From Leptospirales bacterium (lineage in GTDB: Bacteria; Spirochaetota; Leptospiria; Turneriellales; JAOUFE01), in contig JBEQLE010000055.1 in the NCBI GenBank assembly GCA_040326155.1, positions 1 to 29,505 on the forward strand: a stretch of DNA of 29,505 nt. Direction: 5' to 3'. The notes under the pieces were generated by a model. It made no database searches. It had not been told where the DNA came from and saw nothing but the letters and a program-made list of their open reading frames with translations. Within the stretch, counting starts at the first letter, position 1. Every line of letters starts with the position of its first letter. Positions 1 to 11,342 of the stretch are shown piece after piece. The translations under genes and the position numbers were made by a program.

Positions 1-86
1 GTTTCCGTGTCGGATAAACCGCCACTTCACCCCTGCGGGGGTAATCTTTGGAGTACCAAAAACTACACTTATGAAAGTCGTTATCT
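1..86 (-). other. Possible attC-like site, truncated by the window edge
   Basis: The minus strand reads AGATAAC, overlapping the TAA stop of 81..1472, followed by short hairpins (TTTGG-TACT-CCAAA; CCCC-GCA-GGGG). The partner half would lie outside the window. Confidence 0.35.
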
Positions 87-1472
87 GATATATGGTTTAT
101 TCAGAACTGTTTTCAGGATTTCCCCTGTGAAGCCGGCATTTCGAAATGGGATGTTATGATATCTAATAATTGCACGATAGTCATTCTCAAAACTAACACC
201 CATAATATATTTTGAGTTATCTTCAAAATCTTGTAAAAAATCCCATAGGTTTTCATATTTTTCTTGTATATTTTTTTCAGTTTGTTCCCAAGATCGCTGA
301 AAATAATTATTAAATATTTCCTCAAATAGTGGCCCTTCCTTTGTATAATCATTTATAATATTCAATAGTTTAATTTCTCCCGGTGAAGCACCCGATTTTT
401 CCATGTCTAGTAAGAATTTCTTATATAAATTATTCTCGACTCGCCAGATGCTGTGAAACAATTGCATCACTTTTTTGGAAAATTCATGTAATTCCTTACC
501 ATATTCTTTTTTATCAACAATATTTTCAATATACTCTTCATCTTTGTAATTGTAAAATTCCCTTTGTAAGCCTAAAGGATTTTGGTATTGATCATATAAC
601 TCTTGAAATACATTAAAGTACATAGTATTGAGTTTACTTTTAATTTTTTTTTCTTCATTTACATTAAGGTCAATTTTGTTATTCTCCTTGATACCTGCAA
701 TTAAAGTATTTATTTCATTATCTAGCATTTCTACTAGCACAACAGTTTTATATTCTATTCGAAAAATATCCGATAGCACCATATTTAAATACAGCAAATC
801 TTTATATACTTGCCCTTCATATTTATAATAGATTTGATATTTCGTTTTATTTATAATCTGTTGGTTAACGATGTAAATATTTAGTATGAAATCAGTAATT
901 AAAATCGAAACAAAAATAATACTACAAACTTCAGGTTTGCTGCATCCTGTATAATATTTGCTTGTAATCATTGTAATTAAAATAGCAGTAATTATACCAA
1001 GAGTAAATATTAATTTAATTGATCGCGATAAACTTGGCGCCCTTAATTTCCCAATAATAATAAAATCAGTAATAAAATTATCTGATATAATGTAACTTGA
1101 CTGTAACCCAGCCTTAACAAATTTTGTATGCAATTTGGCTATTGGCTTTCCATATTCGTTTTTTTCTTCAACTTTGTAATGCTTTTTATTATGCTTATCA
1201 AATTCATTGCTTAAAAAGTATAATTTTAAAATATTATTCTTGTAAGCGATCGAAAAAAAGTAAAAAATCAACAATATTAAAATTATATTTTTATTGTTCT
1301 CAAGATTTATTTCATTTCCAAAAAAATTAATTTTTCCTGATTCATCAATAAGAAGATATATTATAATAGCAATACTAAATATTATATTCTTTTGTAGTTT
1401 TTTTCCTATGGTTTTATAAGATTCAATCAGTTCATTGAAAAGAAAATTGTAATTTTTACTTGAGTTTTCCAT
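81..1472 (-). CDS. Hypothetical membrane protein (about 4 N-terminal TM segments plus a soluble C-terminal domain), cassette-like
   Basis: 463-aa ORF, extremely AT-rich, with two pairs of hydrophobic segments in the N-terminal half; no family motif recognised. Confidence 0.75.
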   Translation of the reverse strand: MENSSKNYNFLFNELIESYKTIGKKLQKNIIFSIAIIIYLLIDESGKINFFGNEINLENNKNIILILLIFYFFSIAYKNNILKLYFLSNEFDKHNKKHYKVEEKNEYGKPIAKLHTKFVKAGLQSSYIISDNFITDFIIIGKLRAPSLSRSIKLIFTLGIITAILITMITSKYYTGCSKPEVCSIIFVSILITDFILNIYIVNQQIINKTKYQIYYKYEGQVYKDLLYLNMVLSDIFRIEYKTVVLVEMLDNEINTLIAGIKENNKIDLNVNEEKKIKSKLNTMYFNVFQELYDQYQNPLGLQREFYNYKDEEYIENIVDKKEYGKELHEFSKKVMQLFHSIWRVENNLYKKFLLDMEKSGASPGEIKLLNIINDYTKEGPLFEEIFNNYFQRSWEQTEKNIQEKYENLWDFLQDFEDNSKYIMGVSFENDYRAIIRYHNIPFRNAGFTGEILKTVLNKPYIR

Positions 1473-1510
1473 ATATTCTCACCAAACCGCACATCGAATA
1501 ACAGAGTTTA

Positions 1511-1528
1511 CATCTGTTCGTGTCCTTT
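1511..1528 (+). repeat. 18-bp direct repeat, left copy (CATCTGTTCGTGTCCTTT)
   Basis: 17/18 identical to 4605..4622. Confidence 0.85.
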
Positions 1529-1863
1529 CCTGACAACAGGGGGGGCTCGCAACGATATTTTTCACAAATTGTATGTACAGTAAAGACGTTTTATTGTCAT
1601 TCGTGCTATCCCGTTTTTTGTAACCTTTTTCTGTATTGTATGGTAAATCTTTACAAGTTCGAAACCCGGCTGTAGTGCGGTCGCATTCCGAGCTATTTAC
1701 CGATGGACTAGTTTACCTTTACAATTCGAAAAAACAACTCTGGCAGACGGCCTGGTTTTTCTTTTCTTGCTTCGAGAGCATCGAGCATTTCAAAAGGAAC
1801 AAAACCGGGGTCCGTCACTACTTTCAAGACAGATTTTTTGTCTCTACTGGATATAGCGGGCCA

Positions 1864-2898
1864 TTATAAATAGGAACCATTTTGACTCCTGGTATGAGCC
1901 GCTGATACAATTTTGTCTATCATGGTCTCATAGTCTGGCAGGGTTTGGAGAGCGGCGGGAACATACGAAGAGTCAATTCTGAGATCTGGGTGAGGAGTCA
2001 GCTCCATGCAATAGAGTTGATCATCGGAGCCAATTCTGAAATCAATTCTGGAGTAGTCATAAAATTCCATGTGATCATGAATTTTTTCTGAAATACGTAG
2101 CGCTTCGTCGATTAGCTGGGGATGAGAAGCTTTTTCGTATTTTATCGCTCCGTCTACATTGTGTTCCCTTGTTTTGACCTTTCCAGCCATGCTCTTTCCG
2201 TCAAGTATGTTGGTTACGCAACCAAGGGAGAGGGTGTCGGGTTTGTTACCGATGACCGAAACGCTCCACTCATCACCGGGAATAAACTCTTCGACGGTGA
2301 TGGGTTGTCGAAACGCTTTGAGAAGATCTGTGACAACCTCAATTACTTCTTGAGGCGTATTCAATATCGATTTGTCGCTTAAACCAAGCGAGTTTGATTC
2401 ATTGCTTGGTTTGGCGAGCACCGGGAAAGAGAAATCACCTTCTTGTACTTTCACCGCATATTCAGGATAAAAGACCATCGCATGCGGTACACGGACGCCC
2501 AGCCCATGTAATAAGCGATTGCTATGAAATTTATTACGTCCCAAGGTGAGACCATACGCCGAAGCCCCCACGAGTGGGATTCCGTTGTGTCTGGCAATCG
2601 CGGGAACTGTTATTTTTTTCTCAAGCCCGCTGTCGCCCAGTGATTTATTAAATAGCAAGGAGACCTTATTCTTGATTTCGTCGATTCTGGTCATAAGATC
2701 GTCGACACCGTCGATAATTTCTACCTGATATCCTAGTTTCAGTAAAGCCTCTTTGATTGGTTCAATCTCATTGGGTTTCATATATTCGAGCAATTTGTTT
2801 GTAGATTGGTACTCTTTATTAAAAAAAGGATTTTTTGAAATTTCGTATATTAATCCGATTGTCTTATCTTGTTTTGTGTTCATAATTTTGTTGCCCAT
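1864..2898 (-). CDS. D-Ala-D-Ala ligase-like ATP-grasp amino acid ligase (non-canonical); start may be 2883
   Basis: ATP-grasp motifs FPVLAKPSNESNSLG, VEEFIPGDEWSVSVIG, YSRIDFRI and MELTPHPDL; lacks the Ddl N-terminal GGxSxEH, LHG and GEDG motifs. Confidence 0.85.
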   Translation of the reverse strand: MGNKIMNTKQDKTIGLIYEISKNPFFNKEYQSTNKLLEYMKPNEIEPIKEALLKLGYQVEIIDGVDDLMTRIDEIKNKVSLLFNKSLGDSGLEKKITVPAIARHNGIPLVGASAYGLTLGRNKFHSNRLLHGLGVRVPHAMVFYPEYAVKVQEGDFSFPVLAKPSNESNSLGLSDKSILNTPQEVIEVVTDLLKAFRQPITVEEFIPGDEWSVSVIGNKPDTLSLGCVTNILDGKSMAGKVKTREHNVDGAIKYEKASHPQLIDEALRISEKIHDHMEFYDYSRIDFRIGSDDQLYCMELTPHPDLRIDSSYVPAALQTLPDYETMIDKIVSAAHTRSQNGSYL

Positions 2899-3044
2899 AA
2901 ACCTTGTATCATCCTTTGTTCAAGCGAGAATATTTCATTCTTTACTTCAATATTTTACTTCAATATTTTTCTAAAATTTAATGCACTTTTTCGTTAAATT
3001 AAAATTACGATAAAACAGAGTCGCTGGTTTTATCTCAAGCCACC

Positions 3045-4394
3045 CTATGAAGTGGCAACCTGTAAAAGAGATTTTTCGTCGAAACTCACTACGTCATGAG
3101 CGGTATCACTAGATATGTTGAAGAAAGCTTCATCGCTTTCGTTTAACGGATACAGCTGGTCGAACCATGTGTCGGTAGATTTGTACTCGGCAAAGAAGGG
3201 AACGTAGTTGAGTTCCGGGTCGCGGCACTGGACATATCGCAGGATCATAGTGTCTTTGTTGTCTAATTTTCGAGTGCCCAGAATTTCGACCTTTCCGTTC
3301 GCGGCGCTCATGACCGGACCTTTGACCGTTTTTCCTAAACCGGAAATATTACGAACCGCTTTACGAAAAATCTCGGAGACCTGACCCAACGGCAGTTCAT
3401 AATACTTGTTAGCCCCCGTGTTTCTTTCGATAAACATATAATAGGGGATGATACCAAGTTCTAACTGCATGTTCCACATCTTTGTCCATACCCCTGGAGC
3501 ATCATTGACGTGACGCAAGATCGGAGACTGGCTGCGGATGATGATGCCTGCATTTTGGATACGTTTGATCGCCTGTGTCACAACGTCATTTTCCATTTCG
3601 CGATAGTGGTTGAAGTGAGCCATAAAAGTGACATGTTTTCCAGCCAGGTTTAATTTTTCGAACAGGCGCAAAAGGTCATCGGCATCAGGGTCTGTTGTAA
3701 AACGGTGGGGCCAGAAACTCAATACCTTGGTGCCAATGCGGATATTTTTGATATGGCCGTAGTCAGGTTTGCAGAGCTCATCGATGTATTGCGCAAACTG
3801 TTCGGCTCTCATCACCATGGGGTCGCCACCTGTAATGAGCAGATCGGTCACGTCTTCACGTTCTGAGATATATTGAAAAAAGTCTTGTTTTTTGTCCAGG
3901 GAAAATACAACTTCATCGGTATTAACAAATTGAGCCCAACGAAAACAAAACATGCAGTACGAAAAACAAACTTTGCCTTCTTTGGGGAAAAGTAATACAG
4001 TCTCTTTATATTTGTGCTGCACTCCTTCGAGACGTGAGCCATTATGGTGCGGAACATTATACTTCGATTGCCCTCCTGGGTGAGGGTTGAGTTTTGATCT
4101 GATTCTTTGGGCGCAATTTTCGATCTCTTGGGGCGTGCCTTTGCCGAGTATAACATCGACCATTTCGGAGAAGTCCTCTTCTGAGATCATATCGCGACTT
4201 GGGAACATCATCCGAAAGATTGGATCATCAGGAGCTTTTTCCCAGTCGATGAGGTTCTCGATTACGTAGTTGTTCACTCGAAACGGGAGTATGTTGGCCA
4301 TTAATTTTATTTCAAACAACAGATCTTTATTCAGAGCTTGCACCTGTGGTACTTTGTCTATATTATTTTGAGTATAGATGCTTTGCTTATACAT
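3045..4394 (-). CDS. KamA-family radical SAM/PLP amino acid 2,3-aminomutase
   Basis: HKYKETVLLFP, CxxxCxxC motif CFSYCMFCFR, LLITGGDPM, IRIGTK, QSPILRHVND, GIIPYYMF and likely PLP lysine in SAANGKV. Confidence 0.92.
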   Translation of the reverse strand: MYKQSIYTQNNIDKVPQVQALNKDLLFEIKLMANILPFRVNNYVIENLIDWEKAPDDPIFRMMFPSRDMISEEDFSEMVDVILGKGTPQEIENCAQRIRSKLNPHPGGQSKYNVPHHNGSRLEGVQHKYKETVLLFPKEGKVCFSYCMFCFRWAQFVNTDEVVFSLDKKQDFFQYISEREDVTDLLITGGDPMVMRAEQFAQYIDELCKPDYGHIKNIRIGTKVLSFWPHRFTTDPDADDLLRLFEKLNLAGKHVTFMAHFNHYREMENDVVTQAIKRIQNAGIIIRSQSPILRHVNDAPGVWTKMWNMQLELGIIPYYMFIERNTGANKYYELPLGQVSEIFRKAVRNISGLGKTVKGPVMSAANGKVEILGTRKLDNKDTMILRYVQCRDPELNYVPFFAEYKSTDTWFDQLYPLNESDEAFFNISSDTAHDVVSFDEKSLLQVATS

Positions 4395-4416
4395 TGTTTA
4401 ATTATTGCTTAATTTT

Positions 4417-4453
4417 ATTGTTTTGTATAAACCGTATGTTGATACAAAACAAT
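4417..4453. promoter_or_regulatory. Perfect 12-bp inverted repeat upstream of the aminomutase start (operator or leader hairpin)
   Basis: ATTGTTTTGTAT-N13-ATACAAAACAAT, about 22 bp from the ATG at 4394. Confidence 0.5.
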
Positions 4454-4604
4454 TGAGACTTTCCATAAAATGAAAATAGTTTATAACGTCAACCGGATTA
4501 AACACTGTTATCAGTTGGACCTTTGTGACGAATCAGGCGTTCCAATACCGGAGCTTCTCAGAGTAGTTGTCGCCTACAAATAAATGGAGGAATAAAAAAG
4601 TTCC

Positions 4605-4622
4605 CATCTGTTCGTGCCCTTT
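4605..4622 (+). repeat. 18-bp direct repeat, right copy (CATCTGTTCGTGCCCTTT)
   Basis: 17/18 identical to 1511..1528. Confidence 0.85.
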
Positions 4623-4714
4623 TTGGGTACTTGGGCCGCCAGATGAGCGCGACCGAGCCAACATCTATCGGCAGCGGTCGTAGGGAGGCGGTGGCAAAAT
4701 TCTGAACAAGGGTT

Positions 4715-4897
4715 TTGGTCAATAAAACCTCAAATATGACACATGCTGGTTTAGCTAAAATCGCAAATGTATCGAGAACCAGGTTGACTGCATTACTTAA
4801 TTATAATACGATGGGTTTATCCACCGATTTCATGCTCAAGGTTCTGAGTGCATTAGGTTATAAAGCAGATCTTAAAATCAGTAAAATAGCATCTTAA
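4715..4897 (+). pseudogene. N-terminally truncated XRE-family HTH (HigA-like antitoxin) fragment
   Basis: MTHAGLAKIANVSRTRLTALLN...STDFMLKVLSALG is an XRE HTH; an in-frame stop lies at 4703..4705 just upstream and there is no adjacent toxin. Confidence 0.6.
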
Positions 4898-4903
4898 TTT
4901 TCC

Positions 4904-5011
4904 GAACCATGGGTAAAACCATGGTTCATTCACACAGATTAGATGCTGATCACGACATGGAAGCCTTCGGCGATCCGGAGGATGTAAGAGTTCTTCGACA
5001 AACTCAGGAAC
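4904..5011. repeat. Cluster of REP-like palindromes
   Basis: GAACCATGG-GTAAAA-CCATGGTTC (4904..4927) and GTTCTTCGACAAACTCAGGAAC (4990..5011). Confidence 0.5.
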
Positions 5012-5142
5012 CGCAAGTCGACATGACGTCGTAAATAAAGGTACGTATTTCCTAAAATATAAATAGACTATACCATATCAAAATAAATATTTGTATTGAA
5101 GTAAGAGAGAAGGTTAAATAATTAACAAAGGTTATTCTGTTT

Positions 5143-5586
5143 ATGGAAAAAGTGAAATATTTGATTTTTATAATTATGATTAGTTTCTCTGGTTGTGGCT
5201 ATTTTTTAGCCGGGACATGGGAAGATGACCCTGATAATTGGGAAAGGGCATTTGGTTCAGAAAAGCCGACTTTTGTTTCTATTATTCATTCAAAATATTG
5301 GAGATCGCCTCATTTTACATATGAATTTCAATACTTCTTTTCATTTAAAAAAAATCAGCAATTTCTTGACGTCTTGATAAGAAATGATTTAATTCAGGTG
5401 TATGGAAAACGGGCATCAGAAGCTAAAAAAGATACCAGGCACGAAGCGCCCGAATGGTTTGCACCAAAAGCGGCAAATATGTATAGAGTTTATATTCTAA
5501 AAGATGCTGATGTAAATTGGATACAGTATATAATTTTGATCGATAAAAATACCGGTACTATATTTATGTCTGATATTTCTCTATAA
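5143..5586 (+). CDS. Hypothetical lipoprotein
   Basis: 147-aa ORF with basic N-terminus, hydrophobic stretch and lipobox-like FSGC. Confidence 0.75.
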   Translation: MEKVKYLIFIIMISFSGCGYFLAGTWEDDPDNWERAFGSEKPTFVSIIHSKYWRSPHFTYEFQYFFSFKKNQQFLDVLIRNDLIQVYGKRASEAKKDTRHEAPEWFAPKAANMYRVYILKDADVNWIQYIILIDKNTGTIFMSDISL

Positions 5587-5635
5587 CATATAGAAATATA
5601 TACCTTTTCCGTTTTTGAGTAGTGTAAAGTCGTTT

Positions 5636-5744
5636 AAGCTTGATTACAAGCCTGGCGGCTGGATAGTAAGAGCCGTATGAGGTGAGAGTTTCAAGTACGG
5701 TTCTGTGAGAGCCTGCCGGGGGAAGTTCCCGCGGACTACTCGAC
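5636..5744 (+). mobile_element. Group II intron 3' remnant (end of intron-encoded protein, domains V and VI)
   Basis: DV GAGCCGTATGAGGT-GAGA-GTTTCAAGTACGGTTC (5670..5703) has the AGC triad and a GNRA loop; DVI has a bulged A and ends CTACTCGAC; the overlapping frame reads KLDYKPGGWIVRAV-stop. Confidence 0.9.
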
Positions 5745-5971
5745 AGCAGTTAGTTTCATTCGAAATGAGTTTTTAAAAAACATGTGATTCGAAAAATACT
5801 GAATTTATTCAAGGTCACTAATAAAAAAAATAATTAATAGAGTTACATCATTGTAGAAGAAGAATTCTTACCGAAGGAAACTAATTATTATAATAATATG
5901 GAACAATATATTCGGTAAGGTTATTTGTTTTTATTTACAAGGTAAAGCAAAACTAGTTTTATAAATCACAA

Positions 5972-6391
5972 ATGGGAATTCCACATTTCAATGAGGCTTT
6001 AAAACGGTTTAAAGAATTTATTGCCGAACATGTACCCGACACATCTGAAAAAGAAATTCTTTGGATAACAGAAGACGATATCGTATTCGAGTATCCGAGA
6101 AAATATTATTATCGAGAAACACTGATAAGTGAACCAAATACACAAGCCTTATATGAAGAGGGAAAGGATTTAGGGTATGGATTGTCTTTAACACTTGAAG
6201 GATGTTTTAAGAACTTACTGCTATGCACATTAATGATTGCTACTAGCGAAGAAGAGGCGAGTAGTAAATTTATTAAGGGGTTTACCATGAAGGTCGTTCA
6301 AAATCGAGAATATTTTAAACCTATTGCAGATGAGTCTATATGGCATAAAAAGAAACGTAATGAGGAGAAGCACTTTTCTCAATTTAAATAA
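5972..6391 (+). CDS. Hypothetical protein
   Basis: 139-aa ATG-started ORF with protein-like composition; no motif recognised. Confidence 0.65.
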   Translation: MGIPHFNEALKRFKEFIAEHVPDTSEKEILWITEDDIVFEYPRKYYYRETLISEPNTQALYEEGKDLGYGLSLTLEGCFKNLLLCTLMIATSEEEASSKFIKGFTMKVVQNREYFKPIADESIWHKKKRNEEKHFSQFK

Positions 6392-6463
6392 TAAAACTCA
6401 AAAGTGAATAAATATTAAGCTTTGTTTCTTGGATCGATTTAGTTATAATCTACTGCTTTTTTC

Positions 6464-6680
6464 CCATAACGTTTCTTTTTAATCTGACGTACCCTGCGAG
6501 CGCAAACTAACCTCAAGTTTCGTGCGAGCTCTGGCGGTTTAGTCGAGGCACCACAAAATGTGGGTGAGCATCTACAATAATACAAAAGAACGGAGAATCA
6601 CTTTACTGGAAAATATAATTGATGTAATATATAATTGCGAGGTCCGAAGACGCGCGTGAGCAGATCAAAATTTGTTAGAT
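6464..6680 (-). other. attC-like integron cassette recombination site (217 bp)
   Basis: Minus strand: ATCTAAC-5nt-TTGATCTG ... CAGATTAA-8nt-GTTATGG, with complementary inner boxes and internal hairpins, starting 13 bp after the stop of 6694..8193. Confidence 0.65.
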
Positions 6681-6693
6681 ACAGCAAACAGAA

Positions 6694-8193
6694 TTAACGA
6701 AAATTTTTTGATATATTACTGAGTAGTGATATGACATCTGTAGCTGATTCCTTCAGGGATACTCTCGCTCTCTCTTTGTCTTGATCTAACCAACTAATTA
6801 CTTTTTCGAGTAAAAGTTTCTTGGCCCCTCTCTTTTCTTCTTTGTCTAAAATCAAAATGGATGCTACTTCACTTTGAAATTCTTTGGGGTAATATGATTC
6901 AAAGTCATGTTTAGAAAATTGAAGAAACTGTTCATCAGACCAACCACTACTACAATATGTTTTTTTTAGGTTTGCTATGATTTCTGATTCATATGAGCCA
7001 GAGTCTAGAATAACCCAAGCTTTATTTTTGTAACTTGGAGTTAAATGAATATAAACAAATAGACTGTTGAAATTCGAAAATTTTATTTCAACTTCTGATA
7101 GAGACCTAGCAGAATAAGTACGAACTTTGCCAACCATTTTTGGAATAAATATGGGTATAATATAATCTTTGATTATTCGTTCGGCAGATGATTCTTCAAA
7201 AAAAATCCAATATTGCCAAAGGTCAAAATCGAAAACTTCATAACCGAGGGCTTCTAAAACTTCAAGTCGCATTTCGGGTGTATCAATTAATTGAATATTT
7301 GATGTCGGTATTTTTTCTTTAAAAAAAGTAGTTATGCTAAATACCTTTGAAGATTCTAAGCCACCCAGTGTCTTAACAACGATATTTGAGTGCGTAGTTA
7401 TTATAAATTGATTTGAAGAAGATTTTTTTTGAATGAGTCGAAGTAATGCCTTTAATGCCTTTGGATGAATATCATTCTCTGGTTCTTCAATTAAAAATAA
7501 CTTATTCTCAGCTATGCAAAGATCTACTATCAAACCTAGTAAGTTTGTAATACCCTCACCCATATTTTCGATTGGTATATGATCTGCATTTCGAATTATA
7601 TATGCACCTTTTTTCCCATTTCTTGATGAAACTGTTGATACTCTGAAGCCGATAATATTTTCGCAAGCTTCTATGTACTCTTCATAGGCCGGTAAAAACT
7701 CTGGATTTGAAATTCGGTCAATTTTTGAGTACAAATTCGATAAGTTCCCTGTGATGGAATTAGTAGTTTGTAGATTTATATTTTCCGAAAAGCCCGCAGC
7801 CTTTCGTCTAGATAAAAATGGATAGATATAATTTTCCGGTTCTTTTGATTGTATAAATGAACCACCTTGCATCACCGAATTCTTTTCAATGTTGGTTAAT
7901 GTAGTGTAAGGTGTGCTGTTTTGCTTTAAAGTAAGGGTAAAGTCTGTATACTGTTTTGAAAAGTAAATGCCGGCATCATTTTTAAGCCTTATTTCTATCT
8001 TACCTACTTGTACCTTAAGTCTTTTATCAGATGCTAAAAATTGATTTTCAACTTGTAAATTTAATACACTTTTTAATAAAGTCGATTTGCCTGAATTATT
8101 GGGCCCGACAATTATATTGATATTATCCGAGAAATCTATTTTTTCTCGCTCGAAACAACGAATATTTTCTATACTAACATAAGAGATTTTCAT
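6694..8193 (-). CDS. OLD-like ATP-dependent nuclease (ABC/AAA_15 ATPase plus TOPRIM-like domain), putative defence protein
   Basis: Walker A GPNNSGKST, signature-like MGEG, Walker B LIEEPENDIHP, H-loop ITTHS; C-terminal IFFEES, VILDSG and DFESYYP. Confidence 0.8.
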   Translation of the reverse strand: MKISYVSIENIRCFEREKIDFSDNINIIVGPNNSGKSTLLKSVLNLQVENQFLASDKRLKVQVGKIEIRLKNDAGIYFSKQYTDFTLTLKQNSTPYTTLTNIEKNSVMQGGSFIQSKEPENYIYPFLSRRKAAGFSENINLQTTNSITGNLSNLYSKIDRISNPEFLPAYEEYIEACENIIGFRVSTVSSRNGKKGAYIIRNADHIPIENMGEGITNLLGLIVDLCIAENKLFLIEEPENDIHPKALKALLRLIQKKSSSNQFIITTHSNIVVKTLGGLESSKVFSITTFFKEKIPTSNIQLIDTPEMRLEVLEALGYEVFDFDLWQYWIFFEESSAERIIKDYIIPIFIPKMVGKVRTYSARSLSEVEIKFSNFNSLFVYIHLTPSYKNKAWVILDSGSYESEIIANLKKTYCSSGWSDEQFLQFSKHDFESYYPKEFQSEVASILILDKEEKRGAKKLLLEKVISWLDQDKERARVSLKESATDVISLLSNISKNFR

Positions 8194-8301
8194 AAAATCA
8201 CCATTATAGGATATTTATCTTTGTGATCCATTATTACAATAAAATCTCATAAAGCATATCACTCTTGCCCATAACTCTCTTTCTATTTTTCACAACGAAA
8301 T

Positions 8302-9978
8302 TCATGCAATTTTTTGGGAGTCTGGGGCATCTTCCGAATCGGGTTCCAGTTCTCCAAATTTGTCGACTATTTTGGCTTTAAACTGCAAAAATACAGATTC
8401 ATTGTGTAGAACTTTAGAGTTGTTGGGGTAGAGGAGTCTCATTTTTTTGAAAATATCTTCAGCTTCTTGTATTCTTCCTGCATGGTATGCATAAATGGCA
8501 GCTTCATTCATTAAAAGTAAATTCGTCTCTTTTCGTTTCCAGATGGTTAAAATTGCATTCCACGCTTTTTCGAAATAGCCTCTTTTGAACAGAGCGCGCG
8601 CGTAATATACATCGCCCAGAGCGTGGCGAAAGTGGGGTGATAAAAACTTGTACGTGTAATCGAGATTTTGCCAGTCTTCTTTCATAATAAAATAGATAAA
8701 TAATATGTATCGTATATGTTGTGGTACATACTTTTCATCTTTCGGTTTTAAGATCAGGTTTTCAAGCAAATGTAGTAAAACCCCTTCTTCAAGTTCAAAC
8801 GTTTTTGCATTTTCATTCTTAGCCAGATAATTTGCATAAAAATAGTGCAAGCCTGCAAAAGGATATTCTTGCAAAAGCAACTTCAGACTTTCCCAGGTTA
8901 CTCCCTCTGCCAGTTCTTCACCTGGTTTTAAAAGTAGTTTCAATTCCGGAGCTAAGAAAGAGAGACGTTTTAAGCGATCATATTTACCGTAATAAAATAC
9001 CTGGCGTAAAAGTATTTCCCGATATTCCTCATAATATTTTTCTTCGTAGTTTTTGATTAAATAATATTTCAATAAAAATGTGGTGTTTGTACGAAAGCTT
9101 TCACTGAAAAATTCAATAAAATACTCTTCGGTAAAGCCGTTAGTCAGGCTTTTGTTTACCCGTTTTTGCCAGTAACGAAATTCCGCTCTGGACCAATGTT
9201 TTCTACTCTCATTGCACTCGATGGAAATATCGAGAGTCTCAATTGCTGTTAAATTTCTGTACGCAGATAAGAAGTTCGCGAACAATACTTCATTTTTGGT
9301 AACATCATTATAAAGAAAATTCAATATTACCCACTCTTCTTCGGCCAGCTCTCCGTAGGCAAGCGCTTCATATAAAACAAACTTCCAGTTTTCTGTATTT
9401 AAAGAAGCAAAATAGTGTACAAAACAGACAGCAACACGAACGTCTCGAAACCCATATTTCCAGAGGTCGTATAGCTCTTCTAATAAAGGGTCGCGATCTG
9501 TGTTTGGAAACCCGCGAACAATGGTGTCGTCTATAATTTTGAAAAATGGGGTTCTTTGTTTTATAAATTCGTCTTTGTATAATAAAAATGCATCTCGTTT
9601 TTTGGCGTACCCTTCTTCATAAATTTTTCTAAGGGTATCATCTTGAATTCCAACGGCGAGTGTTCCGTCTTCGTTTTCTACCGCATACTCAGTATAAAGC
9701 GGCAATTCGCCCGATTCTTCTTCTACATCTGATTCACCTTTAATAACAACAGGTTTTCGATCATCTTGCAATGAAAACAAAGAGTCATCATCTACCGACT
9801 CGGGCCAGTTCTCTTCTCCCCATCTGTTTTTTATTTTACGCAGGTGAGAATCAAAACTACCAAGTGCTCCGCCGAGTAATTGAATACGAAACACAAAAAT
9901 AGTCGCCAATATTACTATAGCAACTAAAGCCAAAATGGATATTTCGACGGCTCCCAATGTGAATTCAAATATTTGCAT
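8302..9978 (-). CDS. Hypothetical membrane-anchored protein with C-terminal TPR-like repeats
   Basis: N-terminal TM helix; YYARALFKRGYFEKAW and EAAIYAYHAGRIQEAEDIF...YPNN resemble TPR helices. Confidence 0.8.
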   Translation of the reverse strand: MQIFEFTLGAVEISILALVAIVILATIFVFRIQLLGGALGSFDSHLRKIKNRWGEENWPESVDDDSLFSLQDDRKPVVIKGESDVEEESGELPLYTEYAVENEDGTLAVGIQDDTLRKIYEEGYAKKRDAFLLYKDEFIKQRTPFFKIIDDTIVRGFPNTDRDPLLEELYDLWKYGFRDVRVAVCFVHYFASLNTENWKFVLYEALAYGELAEEEWVILNFLYNDVTKNEVLFANFLSAYRNLTAIETLDISIECNESRKHWSRAEFRYWQKRVNKSLTNGFTEEYFIEFFSESFRTNTTFLLKYYLIKNYEEKYYEEYREILLRQVFYYGKYDRLKRLSFLAPELKLLLKPGEELAEGVTWESLKLLLQEYPFAGLHYFYANYLAKNENAKTFELEEGVLLHLLENLILKPKDEKYVPQHIRYILFIYFIMKEDWQNLDYTYKFLSPHFRHALGDVYYARALFKRGYFEKAWNAILTIWKRKETNLLLMNEAAIYAYHAGRIQEAEDIFKKMRLLYPNNSKVLHNESVFLQFKAKIVDKFGELEPDSEDAPDSQKIA

Positions 9979-10097
9979 AGGTTTCTCGCAGGTCTACTTT
10001 ATCATTATCGGCAAATATTAATAGATGTTGTCATTAAAGCAAGAAAAAAATACTTGCTTCGCGTAGAATTTGCTATTATAAAAGGGGAAAATATTGA

Positions 10098-11342
10098 ATG
10101 GAACTTTTTAAAACTCTGGGAATATCATTAGCAATCGGACTCTTAATAGGGTTCGAACGCAGCTGGAGTGAAAAATCTTCACCCAAGATGCACATAGCAG
10201 GGCTGCGCACCTTTGCTTTAGTCGGGCTCTTAGGTGGATTATCCGCTACCATCAGTTATGAATTTACTCCCTGGTTTTTAATTGTAACACTAATCGCCAT
10301 CTCTGTTATATTGTTTTTATTGTACAACCGTGACAGCGAACAAAACAGGTATTACGGGATGACCACGATTGTGGCGCTCTATGTTACATTTTGCCTTGGA
10401 ATTTTATCTGTAATGGGGGAGGCCCTTTTGGCCGTTGGTCTTGCTGTTCTTACGGGAACTTTACTGGGAATGAAAGGCAGGGTCAAACTCTGGCTTGAGA
10501 ATCTGGACCACAGTGAACTTTTCAGTGTCTATAAATTACTGATTATTTCCGTTGTACTACTACCGCTTTTACCCGATGAAAATTTTGGACCCTGGAATGT
10601 AATTAATCTATATGAAATCTGGTGGTTAGTGGTGTTAATTACGTCTATTTCATTTGTGGGTTATTTTGCCATAAAAATAAAAGGGACCCGAATTGGTATT
10701 TTACTTACCGCTTTTTTTGGTGGCCTTGCCTCTTCAACCGTCACCACTTTGAACTTTTCTAAAATAGGTTCACAGAACAAACACATTCACTCTCTTCTTA
10801 CAGCCGGTGTTATTGTAAGCTCTGCAACAATGTTCCCGAGAGTCATTTTAGAGGTGGTCGTCGTCCATTATCCACTCGCTTATTCGTTAATATTCCCCAT
10901 GTTGAGCATGAGCCTGATTTCATATCTGCTGGCATATTACTTCTGGAAACGAAAAGAGAAGAATACGACAAAAGAATCTATTCCGTTAAAAAACCCATTT
11001 GAACTTTTGCCGGCTCTAAAATTTGGAATTTTACTAACTCTTATACTGGTTTTAGGTAAAGTCTTTAAAATGCAATTTGGAGATACAGGAATTTATGTTC
11101 TCTCTTTTTTATCAGGAATAAGCGATGTCGATGCAATTACACTGACACTAGCGCGTATGACACGAGCAGGGGAGATTACCTCCAATGTCGCTACCATGGC
11201 GGTAGTCATTGCCGCCTTAACAAACACTTTAGTCAAAGCGCTACTCGTTATATTCATAGCGCGCGGTTTTATGGGAAAATCAATCGCCATTGCCTTTAGC
11301 ATCATTATCGCCACCGGAGTTATCGCTGCCATACTCATGTAA
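10098..11342 (+). CDS. MgtC/SapB family protein with DUF4010 domain
   Basis: LAIGLLIGFER, AGLRTFALVG, GMTT, FGGLASST and GISDVDAI motifs; multi-TM. Confidence 0.92.
   Translation: MELFKTLGISLAIGLLIGFERSWSEKSSPKMHIAGLRTFALVGLLGGLSATISYEFTPWFLIVTLIAISVILFLLYNRDSEQNRYYGMTTIVALYVTFCLGILSVMGEALLAVGLAVLTGTLLGMKGRVKLWLENLDHSELFSVYKLLIISVVLLPLLPDENFGPWNVINLYEIWWLVVLITSISFVGYFAIKIKGTRIGILLTAFFGGLASSTVTTLNFSKIGSQNKHIHSLLTAGVIVSSATMFPRVILEVVVVHYPLAYSLIFPMLSMSLISYLLAYYFWKRKEKNTTKESIPLKNPFELLPALKFGILLTLILVLGKVFKMQFGDTGIYVLSFLSGISDVDAITLTLARMTRAGEITSNVATMAVVIAALTNTLVKALLVIFIARGFMGKSIAIAFSIIIATGVIAAILM

What the first reader, a model, noticed from the sequence alone, without database searches (positions are those of the whole stretch)
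1864..4394. Minimal aminomutase plus ATP-grasp ligase module: candidate beta-amino-acid dipeptide pathway
Seen: two co-oriented genes, visibly GC-richer than their neighbours, with no other pathway genes. The radical SAM enzyme has the HKYxETVLxFP...CxxxCxxCFRWAQF...MSAxxGKV pattern. From recall, this pattern fits natural-product 2,3-aminomutases (BlsG/VioP type) better than EpmB or fermentative KamA. The ligase lacks Ddl substrate-binding motifs and has ELTPHP where Ddl has ExNTxPG. Inference: the pair makes a beta-amino acid (beta-Lys/beta-Arg-like) and ligates it into a small peptide (antimetabolite, osmolyte or cell-wall modifier).
Basis: partly seen in the sequence, partly recalled or inferred. 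Interest (0 to 1): 0.7.

Follow-up and report, generated by a model that had tools for sequence, protein, structure and literature searches.

The report
Acquired aminomutase plus ATP-grasp ligase cassette
Two foreign genes sitting together, a non-lysine relative of lysine 2,3-aminomutase and a rare relative of D-alanine-D-alanine ligase, probably make and then couple an unusual beta-amino acid, but this exact pairing was found nowhere else.

Summary
Two co-oriented minus-strand genes (3045-4394, 449 aa; 1864-2898, 344 aa) carry the quoted motifs. A 33-nt direct repeat flanks them together and occurs nowhere else in the genome.

The radical SAM enzyme is not BlsG/VioP-, KamA-, EpmB- or Eam-type. 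It belongs to a very large uncharacterised KamA-like clade. There the two lysine-binding Asp of lysine aminomutase are Arg (139 of 139) and Ser/Val, so beta-Lys or beta-Arg is unlikely.

The ligase has a full Ddl fold but is not Ddl; the real ddl lies on another contig. It sits in a rare clade whose members are coupled or fused to a SAM methyltransferase and lie beside a STAND NTPase, not beside an aminomutase.

The exact pair is not conserved. None of 80 KamA-like loci has such a ligase, and the ligase was not found in 60 relatives. Family-level links exist: 3 of 19 long homologues fuse this KamA-like clade to a Ddl-like ATP-grasp, 7 of 19 to an aspartokinase-like domain.

Best reading (about 0.5): an acquired cassette making a beta-amino-acid amide, perhaps from glutamate. 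This scan has repeatedly noted the canonical kamA/Ddl-like cassette on other DNA; this is a new combination.

The parts
3045..4394 (-). KamA-like PLP/radical SAM aminomutase gene (449 aa) of the non-lysine 'Arg-324' clade. Carries the cluster cysteines C143/C147/C150, R152 (alpha-carboxylate Arg of LAM), K368 (PLP lysine), and R324 and V361 at the LAM Asp293/Asp330 positions.
2899..3044 (-). AT-rich (28% GC) 146-bp spacer between the two genes. It holds an AAGGA Shine-Dalgarno-like stretch before the ligase start.
   Evidence: read from the sequence
1864..2898 (-). Ddl-fold ATP-grasp ligase gene (344 aa) of a rare methyltransferase-linked clade. Clade invariants include K123, K163, E210, R284, D286 and E299. 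E299-L-T-P-H-P replaces the Ddl E-x-N-x-x-P-G.
4590..4622 (.). Upstream copy of a 33-nt imperfect direct repeat (28 of 33 identical), 195 nt before the aminomutase start.
1496..1528 (.). Downstream copy of the 33-nt direct repeat, 335 nt after the ligase stop. Start-to-start spacing is 3094 bp, so the two copies bracket both genes.
4715..4897 (+). Context: N-terminally truncated HTH_37/XRE remnant ORF just outside the upstream repeat.

Best explanation
A 3.1-kb, horizontally acquired two-gene cassette lies in a variable, AT-rich stretch at the contig end and is bracketed by a 33-nt direct repeat.

Gene 1 is a PLP- and [4Fe-4S]/SAM-dependent amino-acid 2,3-aminomutase of a very large, uncharacterised KamA-like clade. 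It keeps the catalytic apparatus but has replaced the two Asp that hold lysine's epsilon-amine by Arg and Ser/Val. It should therefore move the alpha-amino group of a non-basic amino acid to C3. Glutamate giving beta-glutamate is my best guess.

Gene 2 is a Ddl-fold ATP-grasp ligase. By the chemistry of its superfamily it activates a carboxylate as an acyl phosphate and joins it to an amine. Read together, the pair makes a beta-amino-acid amide or dipeptide.

Shown: family, fold, conserved catalytic residues, the Asp-to-Arg change, foreign origin, the flanking repeats, and fusion of related domains elsewhere.

Inferred: that the two enzymes work on one metabolite, the substrate, the product and its role.
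For: Gene 1
- All KamA-family models are the only NCBIfam hits.
- LAM (2A5H) is the only PDB sequence hit and by far the best fold hit, E 3e-16 against 5e-05 for the next.
- CxxxCxxC, R152, GGD and K368 are invariant. The exception is C147, which is C in 119 of 120 (W in one).
- R324 is present in 120 of 120 clade members, 19 of 19 fusions and 4 of 4 plasmid copies. In 10 of 10 canonical KamA the same two columns hold D and D.

Gene 2
- The model has pLDDT 91.7 and only Ddl structures top the fold search, with TM 0.7-0.8.
- ATP-grasp core residues are invariant across 22 clade members.

Link between the two families
- 3 of 19 homologues longer than 786 aa are an N-terminal Ddl-like ATP-grasp plus a C-terminal KamA-like domain of this clade. 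The KamA-like part is 46-47% identical to ours and the ligase part 27-28% identical over residues 34-337.
- 7 of 19 are KamA-like plus an aspartokinase-like domain, another enzyme that phosphorylates a carboxylate. Three of the seven were scanned. These two fusion groups are sisters, SH-aLRT 98.
- A rhizobial plasmid has an Arg-type KamA-like gene followed by a Ddl-like ATP-grasp in the same order.
- Canonical KamA lies within 3.3 kb of Ddl-like ligases in 27 of 80 metagenome loci.

Moved as a unit
- The two genes have similar GC.
- The 33-nt repeat brackets both genes, has exactly 2 copies in the genome, and has none in 40 relatives.
- The ligase was not found in 60 relatives and the aminomutase in 1 of 60.
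Against: - The exact pairing is a singleton. 0 of 80 genome loci of the KamA-like clade hold a relative of the ligase within the up to 8 kb of flank held on each side.
- The window's aminomutase falls in the 'standalone' subclade. Its neighbours there are housekeeping genes and no neighbour family is conserved across lineages.
- The closest aminomutase relative (69% identity) sits on an 11.8-kb contig. None of the five ligase homologues comes from a contig of that length. This is an inference from contig lengths.
- The ligase nests, with support 99/91, in a clade containing 4 methyltransferase/STAND loci and one methyltransferase-ligase fusion. It does not group with the ligase domains fused to KamA-like proteins.
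- The genes are 146 bp apart, not overlapping as the methyltransferase-ligase pairs are.
- The ligase clade lacks the usual Asn metal ligand of the E-x-N motif: Thr, Ser, Glu or Ala stands there.
- R324 is invariant also in subclades fused to lysine/ornithine N-monooxygenase. Its meaning for substrate charge is therefore uncertain.
Confidence: 0.5

Rival explanations
1. Chance juxtaposition. Two unrelated cargo genes landed side by side in a mosaic island. The aminomutase works alone, like its standalone relatives. The ligase has lost its usual methyltransferase partner and is orphaned or decaying.
For: - The pair was found nowhere else.
- The aminomutase belongs to the standalone subclade and the ligase to the methyltransferase-linked clade.
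- A 146-bp AT-rich spacer separates the genes.
- The surroundings are a junkyard: an HTH remnant, a group II intron 3' end without an RT gene, and genes of 25-34% GC.
Against: - Both ORFs are full length against relatives, with 94-99% coverage, and keep the catalytic residues.
- Both lie inside one repeat-bracketed 3.1-kb unit of similar GC.
- The two families are repeatedly linked and fused elsewhere.
Confidence: 0.27
2. Conflict or defence cargo. The ligase clade is part of an undescribed mobile module (methyltransferase, ATP-grasp, STAND NTPase). Here the methyltransferase slot is taken by an aminomutase. The pair would make a toxic beta-amino-acid antimetabolite or modify a macromolecule during phage or inter-bacterial conflict.
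For: - 4 of 4 close ligase loci with flanks hold an overlapping methyltransferase and a convergent AAA_16+TPR STAND NTPase. The STANDs are 30-67% identical to each other. Integrases lie beside the module in 3 of 4 loci.
- The window has an AriA/GajA/PtuA-like AAA_15/21 ATPase 2.3 kb away and mobile-element debris.
Against: - PADLOC gave no significant hit for the aminomutase or ligase in the window. For the module it gave nothing for ligase or STAND, only a weak generic methyltransferase hit.
- No close STAND homologue lies in the window; the weak tblastn hits are on other contigs.
- Nothing was tested functionally, and island location is weak evidence.
Confidence: 0.15
3. One reading: a BlsG/VioP-like lysine or arginine 2,3-aminomutase feeding a beta-Lys or beta-Arg dipeptide.
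For: General KamA-family homology.
Against: - Both Asp that bind the basic side chain in LAM are absent (R324, V361), while 10 of 10 canonical KamA keep them.
- Model scores are far below cut-offs: arginine aminomutase 97.6 against 600, AblA 106.9 against 525.4.
Confidence: 0.05
4. An alternative cell-wall ligase (D-Ala-D-X) whose aminomutase neighbour is irrelevant.
For: Ddl is the closest solved fold and sequence family.
Against: - The protein is far below every Ddl and Van model cut-off.
- The E-x-N-x-x-P-G loop is replaced.
- The genome has a bona fide ddl at 344.9 bits.
- Clade partners are methyltransferases, not mur or van genes.
Confidence: 0.03

Closest known systems
Lysine 2,3-aminomutase KamA/LAM (Clostridium subterminale, PDB 2A5H)
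   Same: It is the only solved relative by sequence and the best fold match. The CxxxCxxC cluster motif, the Arg aligned with LAM R134, and the PLP lysine are shared.
   Different: - About 20% identity.
- Below the KamA subfamily cut-off: 135.1 against 199.2.
- Arg and Val/Ser stand at the Asp293/Asp330 columns.
- PLP-phosphate region H-K-Y-x-E-T instead of H-R-Y-x-x-R.
- No C-terminal CxCxxC. That this motif is the LAM zinc site is recalled; the absence is read.
- Extra conserved N- and C-terminal regions.
AblA/AblB pathway to N-epsilon-acetyl-beta-lysine (methanogens; review PMC1224877, passages read)
   Same: A two-gene logic: an aminomutase makes a beta-amino acid and a second enzyme caps it with an amide bond.
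   Different: - The second enzyme there is a GNAT acetyltransferase, not an ATP-grasp ligase.
- The aminomutase there is a true lysine enzyme.
- Ours scores 106.9 against 525.4 on the AblA model.
Glutamate 2,3-aminomutase (Eam; Ruzicka and Frey 2007, not held in the library, recalled) and beta-glutamate to beta-glutamine by glutamine synthetase (PMC1224877, passages read)
   Same: - A KamA-family enzyme whose lysine-binding Asp residues are replaced, one by a basic residue (recalled).
- ATP-dependent amidation of a beta-amino acid is known for beta-glutamate.
   Different: - Ours scores 87.6 against 650 on the Eam model, so it is not a member of that family.
- The glutamate assignment here rests on the Arg substitution and the aspartokinase-like fusions only.
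D-alanine-D-alanine ligase (Ddl; e.g. PDB 8EVX, 2DLN)
   Same: Full three-domain fold with TM 0.7-0.8. The ATP-grasp core Lys, Glu, Arg and Asp residues are kept.
   Different: - 14-21% identity.
- 75.9 bits against a cut-off of 243.
- The E-x-N-x-x-P-G substrate and metal loop reads E-L-T-P-H-P.
- The real ddl is elsewhere in the genome.
Uncharacterised 'kamA + two Ddl-like ligases (+ GNAT)' cassette noted repeatedly by this scan (e.g. e1-4696692, e1-3229178, e1-1402354)
   Same: An aminomutase next to Ddl-like ATP-grasp ligases. I saw it independently in 27 of 80 metagenome loci, with two paralogous ligase clades.
   Different: - There the aminomutase is canonical: TIGR03820 scores 447-564 and Asp/Asp is kept in 10 of 10.
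- There are usually two ligases.
- The window's ligase belongs to neither of those ligase clades and its aminomutase belongs to another clade.
Natural fusion proteins of a Ddl-like ATP-grasp plus a KamA-like domain (P0127, P0130, P0132; 847-909 aa)
   Same: The KamA-like clade is the same: 46-47% identity and R324 kept. The ligase superfamily is the same: 27-28% identity over nearly the full length.
   Different: - Domain order is ligase first.
- The fused ligase domains group with rhizobial plasmid ligases (100/100), not with the window's ligase.
- The fused KamA-like domains form a different subclade from the window's.

Membership tests
KamA family (PLP-dependent radical SAM amino-acid 2,3-aminomutases, TIGR00238) | CxxxCxxC motif for the [4Fe-4S]/SAM cluster | tested here: met
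   C143, C147 and C150 are present. C143 and C150 are conserved in 120 of 120 clade members and C147 in 119 of 120.
KamA family (PLP-dependent radical SAM amino-acid 2,3-aminomutases, TIGR00238) | PLP-binding lysine (LAM K337) and alpha-carboxylate arginine (LAM R134) | tested here: met
   K368 and R152 share columns with K and R of 10 of 10 canonical KamA. R152 aligns with LAM R134 in the HMMER alignment. The residue roles are recalled from the LAM structure paper.
KamA family (PLP-dependent radical SAM amino-acid 2,3-aminomutases, TIGR00238) | Curated subfamily score | tested here: not met
   135.1 bits against a cut-off of 199.2. The protein is a divergent sister clade, not a curated member.
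KamA family (PLP-dependent radical SAM amino-acid 2,3-aminomutases, TIGR00238) | LAM-like fold | tested here: met
   AlphaFold model with pLDDT 83.9. 2A5H is the top match at E 3e-16 and TM 0.57-0.64; the next hit is at E 5e-05.
Lysine 2,3-aminomutase (KamA/AblA, TIGR03820) | Two Asp binding the epsilon-ammonium (LAM Asp293, Asp330) and the equivalog score | tested here: not met
   R324 and V361 stand at those columns, against D and D in 10 of 10 canonical KamA. Score 106.9 against 525.4.
Arginine 2,3-aminomutase (BlsG type, TIGR04468) | Equivalog score | tested here: not met
   97.6 against 600.
Glutamate 2,3-aminomutase (Eam, TIGR04368) | Equivalog score | tested here: not met
   87.6 against 650. 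No bona fide Eam sequence was available to align; 0 of 14 control genomes scored over the cut-off.
EpmB (EF-P beta-lysylation, TIGR03821) | Equivalog score | tested here: not met
   101 against 369.3. The genome has a separate EpmB-like gene on contig C85 at 232.5 bits.
D-alanine-D-alanine ligase (Ddl) | Three-domain ATP-grasp fold of Ddl | tested here: met
   Model pLDDT 91.7. All top Foldseek hits are Ddl/Van ligases with TM 0.7-0.8.
D-alanine-D-alanine ligase (Ddl) | Curated family score | tested here: not met
   NF002378 75.9 against 243; TIGR01205 57.9 against 245.65. The own-genome search shows the real ddl on contig C85 at 344.9 bits.
D-alanine-D-alanine ligase (Ddl) | E-x-N-x-x-P-G metal and second-substrate loop | tested here: not met
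   E299-L-T-P-H-P aligns with 'EvNtlPG' of solved Ddl. Across 22 clade members the Asn position is T, S, E or A.
Known anti-phage defence systems (PADLOC-DB 2.0) | Significant match of either protein to a system component | tested here: not met
   The aminomutase has none. The ligase has only E 0.006 to PDC-S34 over 70 residues.

The most novel reading that the evidence does not exclude
The ligase belongs to a rare, undescribed mobile module (SAM methyltransferase, ATP-grasp ligase, STAND NTPase, next to integrases) that acts in biological conflict. In this genome the methyltransferase has been swapped for an aminomutase of a widespread orphan clade. The result would be a minimal, repeat-bracketed cassette that makes a beta-amino-acid (possibly beta-glutamyl) antimetabolite or tag. 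It would also give the first handle on the substrate of a KamA-like clade with thousands of members.
Probability: 0.1. Interest if true: 0.8.

Novelty: new variant of a known kind. Interest (0 to 1): 0.45.

Why it matters
The aminomutase belongs to a clade with more than 7,800 database hits across many phyla, including Halomonas, Marinobacter, Thiothrix, Ignavibacteria, Nostoc and actinomycete plasmids. I found no described substrate for it.

Three clues turn 'unknown KamA-like protein' into a testable proposal: the invariant Asp-to-Arg change, and the natural fusions to aspartokinase-like and ATP-grasp domains. The proposal is a non-basic, perhaps glutamate, 2,3-aminomutase whose product is carboxyl-activated.

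The window offers a compact two-gene unit in which to test this. The ligase's own clade points to a separate undescribed methyltransferase/ligase/STAND module.

If the pair is only a chance neighbour, the finding reduces to two uncharacterised enzymes in an island.

Tried and rejected
- Complex prediction of the two proteins: no verdict, score 0.00, controls not run. It is not evidence either way.
- Sequencing runs holding window 1000-6500: none was listed, and no RNA holder was listed.
- Viral contigs: 2 distant ligase loci and 6 KamA-like loci. These were not followed up.
- Rfam on 1-10200: nothing in the cassette or its leader. The leader fold z-score is -1.69 and unremarkable.
- Promoter and terminator scan: only weak consensus matches (15 promoter-like sites against 8.9 expected). 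Not used.
- PADLOC: no known defence system.
- Literature:
  - Searches found no paper on an aminomutase/ATP-grasp pair of this kind or on this KamA-like clade. Two 'KamA' hits were the name Kamada.
  - Ruzicka and Frey 2007 is not held. The Eam residue statement is therefore recalled.
- Rhizobial plasmids: most ligase and KamA-like hits there are not adjacent. One Mesorhizobium record has them adjacent.
- Neighbour clustering around 80 KamA-like loci used a crude ORF caller. It picked antisense ORFs in GC-rich genomes, and only 66 of the 80 KamA ORFs clustered as expected.
- Correction 1: in the trees the outgroup I labelled 'true Ddl' (contig C40) is a divergent Ddl-like paralogue (79.7 bits). 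The real ddl is on contig C85. I therefore use only the unrooted splits.
- Correction 2: my notebook says 30 of 80 loci. The count is 27 of 80.
Full report
**What is there**

The window is one whole contig of a 4.26-Mb, 171-contig genome. On the minus strand lie a 449-aa ORF (3045-4394) and, 146 bp downstream, a 344-aa ORF (1864-2898).

The first ORF hits only KamA-family models. The generic subfamily TIGR00238 gives 135.1 bits, below its cut-off of 199.2. The specific models are far below theirs: AblA 106.9/525.4, EpmB 101/369.3, arginine aminomutase 97.6/600, glutamate aminomutase 87.6/650.

The second ORF hits Pfam Dala_Dala_lig_C (55 bits). It lies far below every Ddl and Van model, best 75.9 against 243.

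**Foreign origin and boundaries**

- Genome GC is 39.6%.
- The two genes have 42.6% and 44.2% GC, with GC3 at the 91st and 98th percentile of 1603 long ORFs.
- The flanking genes are extremely AT-rich, 25.7-34%.
- In 60 relatives the ligase was not found (0 of 60 at E 1e-20). The aminomutase was found once (44% identity, same order).
- A 33-nt direct repeat, 28 of 33 identical, lies at 1496-1528 and 4590-4622 and brackets both genes. Its 18-nt core has two copies in the window against 0.02 expected. It has two copies in the whole genome. A 24-nt version has none in 40 relatives.
- Just outside the repeat lie an N-terminally truncated HTH_37 remnant and a group II intron 3' end without an RT gene. 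An AriA/GajA/PtuA-like ATPase also lies outside it.
- From about 10 kb onward the contig is housekeeping: MgtC, MFS, GS type III, NadC.

**The aminomutase**

It belongs to a very large clade. 7859 of 8000 scored candidates were significant, and the top 120 are about 46-52% identical apart from one at 69%. Named members include Halomonas, Marinobacter, Thiothrix, Ectothiorhodospira, Nostoc and Ignavibacteria.

The only solved relative is lysine 2,3-aminomutase 2A5H. The model (pLDDT 83.9) matches it far better than anything else.

I aligned 120 clade members, 19 long fusions, 4 plasmid copies and 10 canonical KamA genes taken from ligase-linked loci.
- The cluster cysteines, R152, the GGD motif and K368 are conserved throughout.
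- The two columns that are Asp/Asp in 10 of 10 canonical enzymes are Arg in 120/120, 19/19 and 4/4, and Ser or Val (one Leu).
- HMMER aligns the first of these columns with LAM residue 293.
- That Asp293 and Asp330 bind lysine's epsilon-amine is recalled from the LAM structure paper.

A lysine or arginine substrate is therefore unlikely.

**What this clade does elsewhere**

Around 80 genome loci no neighbour family is conserved beyond single lineages, and none encodes a relative of the window's ligase. Annotated examples of the lineage-specific neighbours are PDH E1/E2, Lon, thioredoxin-TPR and a TRAP transporter.

On plasmids it occurs in two kinds of setting:
- a natural-product-like cluster in Rhodococcus, with two ATP-grasp genes, AMP-binding, carrier protein, N-monooxygenase and GNAT;
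- a catabolic-looking cluster in Amycolatopsis.

Among 19 homologues longer than 786 aa:
- 3 carry an N-terminal Ddl-like ATP-grasp domain;
- 7 carry a C-terminal aspartokinase-like domain (3 of the 7 scanned: TIGR00657 193.5-209.1 bits against a cut-off of 208.7);
- 2 carry a Lys/Orn N-monooxygenase;
- 1 each carries an AMP-binding domain, an aminotransferase, an FAD/NAD-binding domain, a permease and a ferredoxin;
- 2 carry nothing recognised.

ATP-grasp-fused and aspartokinase-fused proteins are sister groups, SH-aLRT 98. Both partner types activate a carboxylate with ATP. Together with the Arg substitution, this is why I favour an acidic substrate such as glutamate. Beta-glutamate offers the same NH2-CH-CH2-COOH arm that aspartokinase phosphorylates. 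This step is inference, and R324 is also invariant in the monooxygenase-fused group.

The window's protein, with its 69% relative, sits on a long branch inside the standalone subclade, not among the fusions.

**The ligase**

The word-based search found only 5 relatives. An exhaustive phmmer over 1.84 billion representatives found 4440 at E 1e-3 but only 29 at E 1e-30.

The model (pLDDT 91.7) has a complete Ddl fold. The core Lys, Glu, Arg and Asp residues are invariant in 22 clade members. The E-x-N-x-x-P-G loop of Ddl reads E-x-[T/S/E/A]-x-H-P.

The genome's real ddl is on contig C85, at 344.9 bits.

In the four close loci with flanks (41-43% identity), three features recur:
- the ligase start overlaps the stop of a roughly 248-aa SAM methyltransferase;
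- a roughly 828-aa AAA_16+TPR STAND NTPase converges on it;
- integrases lie beside the module in three of the four.

A 589-aa protein fuses such a methyltransferase to a ligase 41% identical to ours.

In a 53-row tree, hand-picked from the hits, the window's ligase nests with these in a 15-row group (99/91). The ligase domains fused to KamA-like proteins group with rhizobial plasmid ligases (100/100). The ligases next to canonical KamA form other groups (a 100-row quick tree agrees). I left out the frameshifted L136 and ORFs under 280 aa. The outgroup was a paralogue, so only unrooted splits are used.

**Wider pattern**

Of 80 metagenome loci retrieved with the ligase alignment, 27 also hold a KamA-family gene within 3.3 kb. 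All 10 that I annotated pass the KamA subfamily cut-off and score 447-564 on the AblA model, 4 of them over its cut-off. Often two paralogous ligases are present, and in one locus a GNAT.

This is the uncharacterised cassette that this scan has already noted many times on other DNA. Earlier notes also describe a large non-lysine KamA branch and orphan copies. I reached both points independently.

**Verdict**

The two genes are real, intact and foreign, and probably arrived as one repeat-bracketed unit. Aminomutase-plus-ATP-grasp is a recurrent and sometimes fused partnership. The simplest mechanism is therefore a beta-amino acid made by gene 1 and coupled by gene 2.

This particular combination draws each gene from a lineage that normally has no such partner, and it was seen only here. 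I put about 0.5 on a joint pathway and 0.27 on chance juxtaposition.

It is a new variant of a kind already seen in this scan and, as far as my searches went, not described in print.

Noticed in passing
window 5668-5744 (+): Rfam RF00029 (group II intron domains V/VI) matches at 60.1 bits (gathering score 40), E 4e-10. No reverse-transcriptase ORF is nearby, so this is an intron 3' remnant or an ORF-less intron. It lies between the 147-aa lipoprotein-like ORF and the 139-aa ORF.
   Followed up: no
L088:7204-11524, L089:4956-9177, L090:5628-9859, L091:7252-11636: A conserved three-gene module: a SAM methyltransferase (about 248 aa) overlapping an ATP-grasp ligase (about 330 aa), with a convergent AAA_16+TPR STAND NTPase (about 828 aa; the STANDs are 30-67% identical to each other). 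Tyrosine integrases lie beside it in 3 of 4 loci. A methyltransferase-ligase fusion also exists (P0151). PADLOC gives only a weak generic methyltransferase hit (mad2, E about 1e-9) and nothing for the ligase or STAND. This may be an undescribed mobile or conflict module.
   Followed up: partly
window 6694-8193 (-) and 8302-9978 (-): A 499-aa AAA_15/AAA_21 ATPase whose best PADLOC hits are AriA, NsnB, GajA and PtuA. It is preceded on the same strand by a 558-aa gene with no family. This could be a defence pair in the same AT-rich stretch.
   Followed up: no
window 4715-4897 (+): A 60-aa HTH_37/XRE ORF that covers only profile positions 30-80 of 80 and has an in-frame stop upstream. It is a truncated regulator or antitoxin remnant next to the upstream repeat copy.
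   Followed up: partly
window 81-1472 (-): A 463-aa ORF with no Pfam, NCBIfam or PADLOC family and 25.7% GC, the lowest GC percentile among 1603 long ORFs of the genome. It is probably foreign DNA of a different origin from the cassette.
   Followed up: no
proteins P0128, P0129, P0131, P0133-P0136: Seven proteins of 837-959 aa fuse the non-lysine KamA-like domain to an aspartate-kinase-like domain with an ACT domain. This fusion hints at the clade's chemistry. I found no description of it in my literature searches.
   Followed up: partly
L174 (Rhodococcus plasmid pDK3) 2987-17206: A copy of the KamA-like clade sits in a natural-product-like cluster. The cluster holds a cupin, a luciferase-like monooxygenase, a SidA-type N-monooxygenase, a class I tRNA-ligase-like protein, a saccharopine-dehydrogenase-like protein, two ATP-grasp genes, AMP-binding and carrier proteins, and a GNAT. 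From recall, it resembles hydrazine-forming cassettes.
   Followed up: no
G000 contig C40:455-1540 (-): The genome holds a second divergent Ddl-like ATP-grasp paralogue (TIGR01205 79.7 bits, below cut-off), besides the real ddl on contig C85.
   Followed up: partly
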